Assembly: GCA_020434345.1 (NCBI GenBank)
Contig: JAGRAZ010000002.1
Location: 1-61,734 of the forward strand
DNA from: Bdellovibrionales bacterium
GTDB lineage: Bacteria > Bdellovibrionota_G > JALEGL01 > JAGRMV01
Direction: 5' to 3'
Length of the DNA: 61,734 nt
Of the stretch, positions 25,537 to 28,005 are shown one piece after another. The translations under genes were made by a program, and so were the position numbers. Each line of letters opens with the position of its first letter. Position 1 is the first letter of the stretch. The notes under the pieces were generated by a model. That model saw only the letters and a program-made list of their open reading frames with translations. It was not told where the DNA came from and ran no database searches.

Positions 25537-27684
25537 ATGAGAACGATAGAGACAATACTTTCAGAAGTCAAAAAGGCAAAGAAAAATGCCAATATTGACA
25601 TGATCAAGCGCGCCTTTGCCATGGCTGAAAATGCCCACGAAGGGCAAAAAAGAAAATCGGGGGACCCTTACCTTCTTCATCCCCTTGAGGTTGCCTATAT
25701 TCTTGCCAATAAAAACATGGACGAAGAAAGTATCGTTGCAGGTCTTTTGCATGACATTGTCGAAGACACTGACATCCCTTTAAAAAGCATTGAAAAGGAA
25801 TTTGGCAAAGAAGTCTCTGAAATCGTAGACGGTCTTACTAAATTAAGTAAAATTTCATTCCAAGCAAAAGACGTGCGTCAAAATGAAAGTTTTCGAAAAA
25901 TGCTTTTGGCCATGTCAAAAGACATTCGCGTCATTATTATTAAGCTTGTAGACAGACTTCATAACATGCGAACACTCGATCATATGAGTTCAAATCGTCA
26001 ACAAGCAATCTCTCAAGAAACATTGGACATATACGCACCTATCGCTCATAGACTGGGTATTTCATGGATTAAAACTGAACTTGAAAATCTAGCTTTCAAA
26101 TACCTACACCCTGAAGCCTACGAAAAGCTACGTAAAAACATTCAAAAATCGGAAAAGGAAAACACGCGTTACGTTCAGAAGGTTCTAGAAGTGATTGAAG
26201 ATCGCATGAATGAAAATAAACTAAGCTGCGAAGTTACTGGACGCTATAAGCATTTATTTTCGATTTTTAGAAAAATGGAAATGAGAAATCTTGATTTTGA
26301 GCAAATCACAGACTTAATTGCATTTCGAATCATGGTAGACACAATCCCTCAGTGCTATGAAGCTTTAGGTTATATTCACAGCATTTGGAAACCAGTGCCT
26401 GGTAAATTCAAAGACTACATTGCTCTTCCCAAAGAAAATATGTACCAATCACTACACACTGCAGTCATTGGTCCTGATGGGAGCAGAATCGAAGTACAAA
26501 TTAGAACACACAAAATGCATAAGTTTGCCGAGGAAGGAGTTGCAGCGCACTGGGCATACAAAACTGGTGACAGCTTCAGTCAAGAAGAATTAGAGCAACT
26601 TAATTGGATCAAAAGGATGCTGGAACTTCAAGAGGATCTGCCCGACTCTCATGAATTTATTGAGTCTGTCAAAATTGATCTTTATTCAGATGAAGTCTTT
26701 GTCTTTACACCTCGTGGAGAAGTTATTGAACTTCCAAAAGGAAGCACACCCATCGATTTTGCCTATCGAATCCACACTGAGGTTGGACACCATTGCAAAG
26801 GTGCCCGTGTAAACGAAAAAATGGTTCCCTTACGACATCAACTTCGCAATGGCGACATTGTAGACATTATAACTGATCCAAACATGCTACCTTCAAAAGA
26901 CTGGTTAAACTTTGTTAAGACTTCCAAAGCCAAATCAAAAATCAGATCTGTTTTACGACAAGAACAACGCGATACAGGAAAACTGATTGGACAAGAGATA
27001 CTGGATCGTGAATTACGAAAAATTGATCTTTCAATTACAAAAATTACAGACAACGGAACTTTGAAAAAAATACTTGATCACCTTAAACTCGGCCATATTG
27101 ATGAGTTATTTCTTGGTCTTGGGTACGGAAAAATTGAGTTATCTCATTTTTTACCACTTCTACACGATGAAAAGGAAACCAACGAAAGCATCATCTCAAA
27201 AATATCTTCTACTCTTCCAAGCATTCGAAAAACATCAACCTCTCCTATTTTGGTTGGTGGCAAAGAAAATATATTGATTCGTTTTGGTAAATGCTGCGAT
27301 CCACTCCCGGGCGACCCTATTATTGGATTTGTTACAAGGGGTAAAGGCGTTACCGTTCACAAAAACGATTGTGTTCGACTTTTAGACATGGACCCTGAAA
27401 GAAAAATTGACGTGGACTGGGCACAAAAAGACACAATCACTCGAATTGTAAAAATTAAAGTTATATCTAGAGACACGCCGGGTATTTTGGCAGAAATTTC
27501 AAAAATTATCTCCAAGGGTGGATCAAACATCGCAAGTGCAACTTGCTCAACAACACAGGATCAAATGGCACTCAACATTTTTGAAATTTCCATTCAAAAC
27601 GCCGAACAATTGCGCTTATTGATGGGGAGCATCGAACATCTCGATGGCATCATCTCTGTCGAACGCACCAAATCCAATGCCTAA
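25537..27684 (+). CDS. rel: Bifunctional (p)ppGpp synthetase/hydrolase (long RSH)
   Basis: Hydrolase RKSGDPYLLHP...LLHDIVEDT; synthetase FKDYIALPK.NMYQSLHT, EVQIRT; TGS (VFTP.G...LP.GSTPIDFAY); ZFD CCDPLPGD; ACT domain. Confidence 0.96.
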   Translation: MRTIETILSEVKKAKKNANIDMIKRAFAMAENAHEGQKRKSGDPYLLHPLEVAYILANKNMDEESIVAGLLHDIVEDTDIPLKSIEKEFGKEVSEIVDGLTKLSKISFQAKDVRQNESFRKMLLAMSKDIRVIIIKLVDRLHNMRTLDHMSSNRQQAISQETLDIYAPIAHRLGISWIKTELENLAFKYLHPEAYEKLRKNIQKSEKENTRYVQKVLEVIEDRMNENKLSCEVTGRYKHLFSIFRKMEMRNLDFEQITDLIAFRIMVDTIPQCYEALGYIHSIWKPVPGKFKDYIALPKENMYQSLHTAVIGPDGSRIEVQIRTHKMHKFAEEGVAAHWAYKTGDSFSQEELEQLNWIKRMLELQEDLPDSHEFIESVKIDLYSDEVFVFTPRGEVIELPKGSTPIDFAYRIHTEVGHHCKGARVNEKMVPLRHQLRNGDIVDIITDPNMLPSKDWLNFVKTSKAKSKIRSVLRQEQRDTGKLIGQEILDRELRKIDLSITKITDNGTLKKILDHLKLGHIDELFLGLGYGKIELSHFLPLLHDEKETNESIISKISSTLPSIRKTSTSPILVGGKENILIRFGKCCDPLPGDPIIGFVTRGKGVTVHKNDCVRLLDMDPERKIDVDWAQKDTITRIVKIKVISRDTPGILAEISKIISKGGSNIASATCSTTQDQMALNIFEISIQNAEQLRLLMGSIEHLDGIISVERTKSNA

Positions 27685-27822
27685 CTCGCAGGGAGGTGTA
27701 TCAAAGTGGCTTTGCCACTTTGATAGGGGGGAAGCGTTTCCCCCATCACAAGAAACAGACAGGGGAACATTGAACATCTGGATGGCATTGTATCTGTTGA
27801 ACGCACAAAATCCAACGCATAA
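27625..27822 (+). repeat. Direct repeat of the last 20 rel codons (27625-27684 and 27763-27822)
   Basis: GSIEHLDGIISVERTKSNA* versus GNIEHLDGIVSVERTKSNA*; 50/60 nt identical by manual comparison; offset 138 nt. Confidence 0.9.
27699..27748. repeat. Tandem hairpin insert between the rel 3' repeats
   Basis: Perfect TATCAAAGTGGC-TTT-GCCACTTTGATA followed by GGGGGAA-GCGT-TTCCCCC. Confidence 0.8.
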
Positions 27823-27881
27823 CTAAAATTCTCATTAGCAAAGTAAATAATCTTTTTTTTAAACATATTTTCAATTTATCA

Positions 27882-28005
27882 GAAACCGAGAGATTTTTTA
27901 TTCTGACAAGGCCGCAACCTCTTTTGAAAGCGCAGCGTACATTGCGTTACGTGAGCATTTCAAAAGAAGGTGAGAACGAAGTCAGAGTGAAAAAGATCCG
28001 GTTTC
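27882..28005. repeat. 124-bp imperfect palindrome, Rickettsia palindromic element (RPE)-like
   Basis: Nested arms GAAACCG/CGGTTTC, TTCTGAC/GTCAGAG, ACCT/AGGT and CTTTTGAAA/TTTCAAAAG around the core GCGCAGCGTAC..GTTACGTGAGC. Confidence 0.75.

What the first reader, a model, noticed from the sequence alone, without database searches (positions are those of the whole stretch)
27625..27822. rel 3' end duplicated with mostly synonymous divergence: gene-restoring integration scar
Seen: the two 60-nt copies differ at 10 positions, 8 of them third-codon positions. Seven changes are synonymous, and the others give S>N and I>V. The stop codon is kept in both. The in-use upstream copy has C at 7 of those 8 wobble sites, while the orphan downstream copy has mostly A/T, as in typical host genes. 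Known: integrative elements that target gene 3' ends carry a replacement tail. Inference: the functional tail is foreign, the native tail was displaced, and only 78 bp of the element remains. rel is an unusual attB target, so a rel-targeting element family may exist.
Basis: partly seen in the sequence, partly recalled or inferred. Interest (0 to 1): 0.65.

Follow-up and report, generated by a model that had tools for sequence, protein, structure and literature searches.

The report
Mobile hairpin element duplicating gene ends
The doubled end of the rel gene brackets one complete copy of a small hairpin-forming mobile DNA element that, in this group of Bdellovibrio-like bacteria, repeatedly sits at the ends of housekeeping genes between two copies of the gene's tail, so the gene stays intact; it is not the last scrap of a large lost island.

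Summary
Observation confirmed.

The in-use tail is compositionally foreign, and two close relatives have an empty site. But the ~76-nt spacer is not a remnant of a large element. It is a complete member of a dispersed family with a conserved left end and two covarying hairpins. G000 has 17 copies, and 8 of 15 genomes of the order have the family.

In G000, 12 copies are flanked by a 24-69-nt duplication of the adjacent gene end (rel, ftsZ, rho, hemD, nadC and others). Across 9 coding pairs about 36 differing codons are synonymous and about 3 are not, so both copies evolved as coding sequence in separate lineages. Which copy looks foreign varies by locus. lepA carries rearranging arrays of element-plus-tail units in two congeners.

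No reverse transcriptase, IS4-type transposase, Cas1, integrase or nuclease tracks the element. The best model is insertion-duplication at gene ends followed by homology-driven spread. The creating step is unknown.

This scan has noted the same signature on other DNA.

The parts
25537..27684 (+). rel (bifunctional RelA/SpoT (p)ppGpp synthetase/hydrolase), 715 aa from the ATG; the gene whose end is duplicated
   Evidence: ORF; Pfam RelA_SpoT, HD_4, TGS, ACT on the identical protein P0001 and its homologues
27624..27685 (+). D1: in-use copy of the rel tail (GSIEHLDGIISVERTKSNA*, plus 1 nt after the stop); compositionally atypical (C-ending codons)
27686..27701 (+). Element left end TCGCAGGGAGGTGTAT (family consensus TCGCAAAGGGGTGAAT); purine-rich, Shine-Dalgarno-like; abuts D1 directly
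   Evidence: nearly invariant CGCA...GGTG.AT across 18 copies
27699..27725 (+). Hairpin 1 (TATCAAAGTGGC ttt GCCACTTTGATA); the structure is conserved across the family while the sequence is free to vary
   Evidence: 8 pairs, all with double compensatory changes; z = -3.6
27727..27744 (+). Hairpin 2 (GGGGGAA gcgt TTCCCCC); conserved in both sequence and structure
27745..27761 (+). Variable A-rich right tail of the element (ATCACAAGAAACAGACA); abuts D2 directly. This copy lacks the optional third hairpin.
27762..27823 (+). D2: orphan copy of the rel tail (GNIEHLDGIVSVERTKSNA*), host-typical codon usage, not joined to any gene body

Best explanation
The feature is one complete copy of a small (about 65-100 nt), non-coding, non-autonomous mobile element family of Bdellovibrionales.

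Anatomy: a conserved left end TCGCAAAGGGGTGAAT; hairpin 1 with conserved structure and free sequence; the conserved hairpin 2 GGGGAAAAGCGTTTTTCCCC; often a third palindrome; and a variable A-rich tail.

Shown: copies sit at gene ends. They lie 1-23 nt after the stop codon of the flanking gene in G000 (9 of 12 copies) and 2-6 nt in the metagenome copies. Many are flanked by a direct duplication of 24-79 nt of the target that includes the stop codon, so the gene stays intact and a second, orphan tail lies downstream. Copies are gained and lost between congeners. Some gene ends (lepA) carry arrays of element-plus-tail units. The two tail copies differ almost only synonymously.

Inferred mechanism: an element-plus-gene-end unit enters a resident gene end by homology-dependent insertion-duplication. 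This could be Campbell-type or ends-in recombination, or allelic recombination that stops at the element boundary. One tail copy then derives from another lineage where it was a working gene end. The crossover position decides whether the upstream copy (rel) or the downstream copy (rlmN-like gene) is the imported one. Recombination between the two tails removes a unit cleanly. Conserved housekeeping gene ends act as portable homology arms.

Not identified: the step that first creates a long duplication at a new gene. None of the usual enzymes tracks the element.
For: Dispersed family: and the CM search (17 hits in G000; 8 of 15 genomes of the order; two families).

Structure under selection: (15 of 17 pairs with double compensatory changes).

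Duplications: and (12 G000 copies; L038 69/69, L037 34/34; 8 of 25 copies in other genomes, scores 60-146 against a shuffle maximum of 20-26 for those copies; L094 41/42). Genome-wide, 4 of the 5 tail duplications are at this element.

Synonymous divergence: (54 nt differences, 41 at position 3; 36 synonymous and 8 non-synonymous codons, of which 5 are alignment overhang; the random null gives 18% synonymous with a maximum of 41%). The G008 lepA copies differ by 3 changes, all synonymous.

Mobility and empty sites: rel; the L038 gene and lepA are empty in G000; rlmN and nadC are empty in 5 relatives.

Arrays with unit gain and loss.

Variable polarity: (rel: the upstream copy is foreign-like), against (rlmN-like gene: the orphan is foreign-like, and the in-use tail matches G001's HLNQAKL*).

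Cross-species closeness of elements at non-orthologous loci (92%, against about 71% genome nucleotide identity).

No cognate enzyme: RVT_1, DDE_Tnp_1, Cas1, and no element next to Y1_Tnp, integrase or GIY-YIG loci.
Against: 1. No excised circle, empty allele or donor lineage has been observed.
2. Homology-driven spread does not explain how a duplication arises at a new gene. Young copies with identical tails (ftsZ 43/43, C54 43/43, L038 69/69) look like plain long target-site duplications.
3. Two thirds of copies in other genomes have no detectable duplication. Duplication is therefore either not obligatory or is quickly lost.
4. The orientation rule (gene then left end) is strong in G000 (9 of 12) but weak elsewhere (13 of 31).
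5. All the genomes are MAGs, so absence of an enzyme is not proof.
6. A 140-bp double-stranded circle is physically awkward, so the intermediate may be something else.
Confidence: 0.55

Rival explanations
1. Transposase-type insertion with a long, variable target-site duplication (staggered cuts 24-79 nt apart) by an unidentified trans-acting enzyme. The two tails are identical at birth. Later differences arise because ordinary homologous recombination with element-free alleles of related lineages overwrites one copy or the other, with tracts ending at the element.
For: Young copies have identical duplications that abut the element ends exactly. The duplication length is variable, as in IS1630/IS1634 and 'insertion with long target duplication'. 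The element has defined left and right ends. Arrays arise from repeated hits. Y1/HUH transposases are present in every genome of the order.
Against: No transposase tracks or flanks the element. The element has no terminal inverted repeats. At rel the foreign-looking composition starts at the left edge of the duplication, which an arbitrary recombination tract would not be expected to do. The mosaic tail in G008 fits a crossover inside the repeat. This rival overlaps the best explanation, because it supplies the missing first step.
Confidence: 0.3
2. One reading: a large integrase-bearing island integrated site-specifically into the rel 3' end carrying a replacement tail, then decayed or deleted down to 78 bp (an attL/attR scar, CIME-like).
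For: The architecture (in-use foreign tail, insert, native orphan tail) is that of attL/attR at a gene 3' end. At rel the in-use tail is compositionally foreign. The same genome has two cargo-bearing inserts with duplicated tails (earlier notes; the divIVA one was relocated).
Against: The spacer is a full-length member of a conserved family with 17 copies at unrelated loci. No integrase lies at or near any copy. Relatives have empty rel sites and no island. The left edges of the duplications share no core motif. No copy was found on viral contigs.
Confidence: 0.05
3. Metagenome-assembly artefact: two strain haplotypes of the rel tail were joined in tandem.
For: The genome is a 144-contig MAG with scaffold gaps that repeat their flanks. 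Synonymous-only differences are what strain haplotypes look like.
Against: The same architecture, with the same element family, occurs in independent assemblies from other projects. An artefact would not place a conserved structured element between the copies. The element-to-orphan junction needs real reads. Pair divergence reaches 24%, and the tails can end differently, which is beyond strain level.
Confidence: 0.03
4. The element is primarily a host cis-regulatory or 3'-UTR RNA structure (a translation or stability element placed right after stop codons), and the duplications are incidental.
For: The left end lies 1-23 nt after stop codons and is Shine-Dalgarno-like. The hairpins covary. The family is old and low-copy.
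Against: Presence and absence differ at housekeeping genes between congeners in both directions. There are arrays at lepA, copies at tRNA genes, no Rfam match and no intrinsic-terminator signature. Function and mobility are not mutually exclusive.
Confidence: 0.07

Closest known systems
Insertion with long target duplication (Nobusato et al. 2000, Gene 259:99; Furuta, Abe and Kobayashi 2010, PMC2853133)
   Same: The insert lacks any mobility gene and is flanked by direct repeats of more than 30 bp of the target. The repeats often span a stop codon so the gene survives. A related genome has an empty site. The mechanism is unknown.
   Different: Those inserts are restriction-modification genes, each a one-off, with near-identical repeats. 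Here the insert is a conserved, structured, dispersed 65-100-nt element. The repeats can be up to 24% diverged with codon-patterned differences. Arrays form at one gene end.
Mitochondrial mobile-ORF 'gene hybrids' (Allomyces macrogynus atp6; Glomus atp6/atp9/cox2/nad3; Beaudet et al. 2013, PMC3630166), and the double-hairpin elements of Allomyces mtDNA (own knowledge: Paquin et al. 2000)
   Same: The layout is an inserted foreign C-terminus, a mobile insert and a displaced native C-terminus. Divergence between the two ends is mainly synonymous, and the hybrids are explained by horizontal transfer. The rel locus shows the same polarity.
   Different: The mitochondrial elements encode a LAGLIDADG or GIY-YIG homing endonuclease. 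This element encodes nothing, and no nuclease tracks it. Polarity is variable here.
Integrative elements at gene 3' ends and their gene-less remnants (e14/phage 21 at icd; ICE/IME at rpsI, guaA and others; CIMEs)
   Same: A direct repeat of the gene tail brackets the insert and the gene is restored. tRNA genes are also used as targets.
   Different: There is no integrase and no shared core. Many different targets are used by one small family. The element is complete at 65-100 nt.
REP/REPIN-RAYT elements and MITEs
   Same: Small, non-coding, hairpin-forming, dispersed, long-lived and low-divergence-tolerant. Y1 (RAYT-like) genes are present in all genomes of the order.
   Different: No RAYT is flanked by this element. 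There are no terminal inverted repeats. The target duplication is long and variable rather than absent or 2-10 bp. Copy number is low (4-17).

Membership tests
Insertion with long target duplication (Nobusato/Furuta) | Insert flanked by direct repeats of more than 30 bp that match a single copy in the empty site of a related genome | tested here: met
   rel: 62-nt repeat, with one tail only in G001/L031 and L032. The L038 gene and lepA are occupied in G001 and empty in G000.
Insertion with long target duplication (Nobusato/Furuta) | No transposase or integrase within or beside the insert | tested here: met
   The 76-nt insert has no ORF. The CM search of all integrase and Y1 loci found no element.
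Site-specific integrative element scar (attL/attR, CIME) | A cognate integrase-bearing element at the same target in some genome | tested here: not met
   Relatives' rel sites are empty. There are no viral-contig copies and no integrase next to any copy.
Site-specific integrative element scar (attL/attR, CIME) | A common core sequence at the crossover shared by copies of one family | tested here: not met
   The left and right edges of 12 duplications share no motif.
MITE (DDE-transposon derivative) | Terminal inverted repeats and a short target duplication of fixed length | tested here: not met
   The ends TCGCAAAGGGGTGAAT and ...AYAGA are not inverted repeats. Duplications are 24-79 nt and variable.
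REP/REPIN-RAYT | The RAYT (Y1 transposase) gene is flanked by its own REPs | tested here: not met
   There was no significant element hit in 11 Y1_Tnp loci from 10 genomes (best hit E = 0.022 at 15.7 bits, against about 42-80 bits for the G000 copies). The C144 RAYT has unrelated palindromes.
Homing-endonuclease mobile ORF (mORF gene hybrid) | An endonuclease ORF lies between the inserted and the native C-terminus | tested here: not met
   There is no ORF in the element. A small GIY-YIG gene lies 260 bp from one tandem pair, but 12 other GIY-YIG loci have no element.
Homing-endonuclease mobile ORF (mORF gene hybrid) | The in-use C-terminus is foreign and the displaced one is native | tested here: inconclusive
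   Met at rel by composition. Reversed at the rlmN-like gene. No donor was identified.
Diversity-generating retroelement (VR/TR pair) | Differences confined to template adenines; reverse transcriptase nearby | tested here: not met
   The differences are of all base types and are synonymous. There is no RVT_1 in G000.
Retroelement (SINE-like, target-primed) | A reverse transcriptase present in genomes that carry the element | tested here: not met
   RVT_1 is present in 1 of 7 element-positive genomes. It is absent from G004 (96% complete) and G008 (97% complete).
Known RNA families (Rfam 15) | A match at or near the gathering score | tested here: not met
   The best hits had E = 0.19-0.86, far below gathering scores.

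The most novel reading that the evidence does not exclude
These are a distinct class of selfish DNA with no enzyme of its own. A tiny structured element uses a copy of a conserved housekeeping gene end as a portable homology arm. It enters and leaves genomes purely through host recombination (insertion-duplication in, tail-by-tail recombination out), so it can sit inside the ends of essential genes harmlessly and spread between species. The scan's notes of the same signature in archaea, CPR bacteria and proteobacteria would then be convergent or related members of one widespread and so far undescribed strategy.
Probability: 0.3. Interest if true: 0.85.

Novelty: new variant of a known kind. 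Interest (0 to 1): 0.65.

Why it matters
If the reading holds, it gives a concrete, repeatable system for the long-unsolved 'insertion with long target duplication' phenomenon. The system is one element family with dozens of copies, arrays and empty sites. It also shows that the tail-replacement trick known from homing-endonuclease ORFs in fungal mitochondria is used in bacterial chromosomes by an element that encodes nothing.

In practical terms, orphan gene tails and chimeric gene ends at housekeeping genes (rel, ftsZ, rho, lepA) can mislead annotation, phylogenetic markers and integration-site predictions. The element also marks sites of inter-lineage recombination in an uncultured predator-related clade.

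Tried and rejected
2. Exact-protein look-ups of Rel found nothing. The nearest Rel homologues are only 81% and 75% identical, so no donor or near-isogenic empty site could be found.
3. DGR reading: rejected, because the differences are not adenine-specific and are synonymous, and there is no reverse transcriptase.
4. Retroelement/SINE reading, suggested by the A-rich tail, variable duplication and some 5'-truncated hits: rejected because reverse transcriptase anti-correlates with the element.
5. IS4/IS1634-like transposase and Cas1/casposase-like integrase: no correlation.
6. RAYT or integrase as a linked partner: no element beside any of 15 loci.
7. Homing-nuclease partner: one GIY-YIG adjacency, not systematic.
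8. Phage origin: no copies on viral contigs.
9. Known RNA family or intrinsic terminator: none.
10. Read-through or re-initiation into the orphan tail: the two rel stops are 138 nt apart and in frame, but the element has a TGA in that frame, other loci are out of frame, and there is no conserved small ORF (read from the sequence).
11. Simple neutral decay of the orphan: rejected by the codon pattern.
12. Deciding which rel tail is native by comparing with relatives: uninformative because synonymous sites are saturated.
Full report
**1. The observation**

The rel ORF ends at 27684. Its last 20 codons recur 138 nt downstream. Eight are at third codon positions, 7 codons differ synonymously, there are two conservative replacements (S/N, I/V), and both copies keep TAA. 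The repeat extends one base further on each side (27624-27685 and 27762-27823), which leaves a 76-nt spacer. The local alignment scores 82, against a maximum of 28 in 1000 shuffles. Only 5 of 844 long-ORF ends in the whole genome have their tail repeated within 460 nt.

**2. What the spacer is**

A search of the window's own genome (G000, a 144-contig, 88.6%-complete MAG; the window is contig C67) showed that the spacer is a dispersed repeat. An nhmmer census, end-motif scans and a covariance model found 17 copies.

The element has five parts:
- a nearly invariant left end, TCGCAAAGGGGTGAAT, which is purine-rich and Shine-Dalgarno-like;
- hairpin 1, whose sequence differs almost completely between copies while its pairing is kept;
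- hairpin 2, GGGGAAAAGCGTTTTTCCCC;
- in many copies, a third variable palindrome;
- a variable A-rich tail, often ending AYAGA.

RNAalifold on 18 copies gives 17 pairs, 15 of them with double compensatory changes. The rel copy folds with z = -3.6. It matches no Rfam family and has no intrinsic-terminator signature. The rel spacer is therefore a complete family member, not a fragment of something larger.

**3. The duplication is a property of the family**

In G000, 12 copies are flanked by a direct duplication of 24-69 nt of the adjacent sequence. In 9 of them a long ORF ends 1-23 nt before the left end, on the same strand.

By Pfam the genes are rel, an rlmN-like radical-SAM enzyme, a chlorite-dismutase-family protein, hemD, an SBP_bac_5 protein, ftsZ and nadC. 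I also recognise one as rho from its C-terminal sequence (own knowledge). One copy (C54) has the gene on the other side. Two tandem copies lie beside tRNA-Trp with a decayed partial tRNA copy. Four of the five tail duplications found genome-wide are at this element. The fifth (C62) brackets a different small hairpin.

**4. The two tails evolved as coding sequence**

Over the 9 coding pairs there are 54 nucleotide differences, 41 at third positions. Differing codons are 36 synonymous and 8 non-synonymous. Five of the eight are alignment overhang at the left edge, which leaves about 36 to 3. Several are two-step synonymous changes (Leu CTT/TTG, CTC/TTG), and one pair differs in its stop codon (TAA/TAG).

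Random substitution gives 18% synonymous, with a maximum of 41% in 5000 trials. By my own estimate, a duplication followed by neutral decay of the orphan predicts about 40%. Pair identity ranges from 100% (ftsZ, C54) to 76% (C22). In two pairs the proteins end differently, as orthologues do (HLNQAKMSS*/HLNKS*; KIELI*/KIELVE*). So in the diverged pairs one copy comes from another lineage in which it was a working gene end.

**5. Mobility**

The two closest relatives I could find are G001 (= GCA_041391435.1, same genus, Rel 81% identical) and the L032-L035 lineage (75%). Both keep the rel/483-aa-gene arrangement with one tail and no element.

In the other direction, two genes that carry the element in G001 have empty sites in G000. 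These are an unnamed gene with a 69/69 duplication, and lepA. The rlmN and nadC sites are empty in five relatives.

The family occurs in 8 of 15 genomes of the order, in two families, at 4-17 copies each. It also occurs in six metagenome contigs, where the left end lies 2-6 nt after a stop codon. It was not found on viral contigs. Only about a third of copies outside G000 have a detectable duplication (8 of 25). The same-strand rule is also weaker there (13 of 31).

A G000 copy is 92% identical to a G001 copy at a non-orthologous locus, while the two rel genes are about 71% identical with synonymous sites saturated. This points to horizontal movement or strong constraint.

**6. Arrays**

In G010 lepA is followed by tail, element, tail, element, tail. 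Its congener G008 has a differently composed array at the same place: one unit that G010 lacks and one missing. Its second tail is a mosaic. It has three synonymous differences in one half and shares G008-specific synonymous variants in the other half. G001 has a different subfamily at lepA, with the duplication starting within 2 nt of the same position. G000, G002, G004 and G012 are empty. Units of element plus tail are therefore gained and lost, and crossovers occur inside the repeat.

**7. Which tail is foreign**

At rel the in-use tail has 11 of 19 C-ending codons. That is the maximum over all rel windows (8 elsewhere), and only 0.024% of genome windows reach it. The onset is at the left edge of the repeat. 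The orphan uses host-typical codons.

It is not general. Summed codon-usage log-ratios favour the orphan at three loci, favour the in-use copy at three, and are neutral at one. At the rlmN-like gene the in-use tail matches the congener's ending (HLNQAKL*), while the orphan (HLNKS*) is both the odd one and the less host-like one.

Variable polarity is what a single crossover between a carried tail and the resident tail predicts. A crossover near the left edge makes the upstream copy foreign, and one near the right edge makes the downstream copy foreign. It is not what an element that always brings its own upstream tail predicts.

**8. Enzymes**

G000 has no RVT_1. Across the order, reverse transcriptase is present in only 1 of 7 element-positive genomes and is absent from two that are 96-97% complete. 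IS4-type DDE transposases and Cas1 do not track the element either. Y1/HUH (RAYT-like) genes occur in all 15 genomes, so they do not discriminate. No element lies beside any Y1, integrase or small GIY-YIG locus, except for one non-systematic adjacency at tRNA-Trp. All the genomes are MAGs, so absence is provisional.

**9. Explanation and rivals**

Best supported: a non-autonomous gene-end element that persists and spreads by homology-dependent insertion-duplication and is lost by tail-by-tail recombination. What makes the first long duplication at a new gene is unknown.

The main rival, which is partly complementary, is a trans-acting enzyme that makes long staggered cuts, followed by ordinary recombination that overwrites one tail.

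An assembly artefact is unlikely, because the same architecture recurs in independent assemblies.

**10. Comparison with what is known**

The phenomenon falls under 'insertion with long target duplication' (Nobusato 2000; Furuta 2010, PMC2853133), whose mechanism is unsolved. Its layout mirrors the mitochondrial mobile-ORF gene hybrids (PMC3630166), but without an endonuclease. It fails the defining tests for MITEs, REPIN-RAYT, integrase scars, DGRs and retroelements.

I found no description of this element family, or of small non-coding elements with codon-patterned tail duplications, in four successful literature searches.

This scan has already noted the same signature on other DNA. Two cargo-bearing inserts occur in this same genome. 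Hairpin elements with duplicated guaB, mraY, gyrB, rps10, hppA and atpB tails occur in other phyla. Those are unchecked notes. I used one of them (a GIY-YIG case) as a lead and tested it here, with a negative result.

**11. Verdict**

The feature is a new variant of a known kind, of real interest to mobile-DNA specialists. The mechanism is only partly resolved.

Noticed in passing
window 27880-28005: A second, unrelated dispersed repeat of about 125 nt lies between the orphan rel tail and the downstream gene. G000 has at least 6 other copies (C33, C128, C89, C78, C22, C103), and G004, a different genus, has at least 6, up to 87% identical. There is no Rfam match.
   Followed up: partly
G000:C55:13837-14700 (L109 968-1740): A nest of elements: a partial right end, two tandem full copies, a decayed partial tRNA-Trp copy and the intact tRNA-Trp, followed 157 nt later by a 79-aa GIY-YIG (URI-type) gene. 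The adjacency is not seen at 12 other small GIY-YIG loci in the order.
   Followed up: yes
G000:C62 around 8924 (minus strand): Another gene tail (...CPNCGATTGCS*) is duplicated (25 nt, one synonymous difference) around a different ~60-nt insert with its own hairpin (TCCGCCATAGCGAAAGCGACGGCGGA). A second kind of small insert shows the same footprint.
   Followed up: partly
G000:C56:27615-28758: The divIVA-tail duplication noted earlier by this scan (49 nt, 88% identical) brackets a 1046-bp insert that contains none of this element's sequence. So the tail-duplication footprint in this genome is not limited to one insert type.
   Followed up: partly
G000:C144:30567-31352: A Y1 (RAYT-like) transposase gene is flanked by a pair of 65-nt palindrome-containing repeats (GCAAAGGTGCCAGGC...GCCTGGCACCTTTGC), a classic RAYT-REP arrangement. 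It is unrelated in sequence to the element studied here.
   Followed up: no
G010:C3:253375-253921 (L056/L128) and G008:C15:195462-196000 (L129): lepA carries arrays of tail-plus-element units in two congeners, with different unit content. A diverged element subfamily (left end GTGCAAGGGAGTGAAA) is present there.
   Followed up: yes
G000:C11:32298-32660 and C74:1953-2145: A third repeat family (...GGAAGTCACGCGCAGCCCGAAGGGCGAGCCATGAAGCG...) occurs in both orientations next to an element copy and elsewhere. Several small repeat families co-locate in the same intergenic regions.
   Followed up: no
G000:C71:11852-11951, C122:31433-31532, C135:2118-2217: 100-N scaffold gaps whose two sides repeat the same 43-77 nt. 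These are unmerged overlaps, an assembly artefact to keep in mind when counting repeats in this MAG.
   Followed up: no
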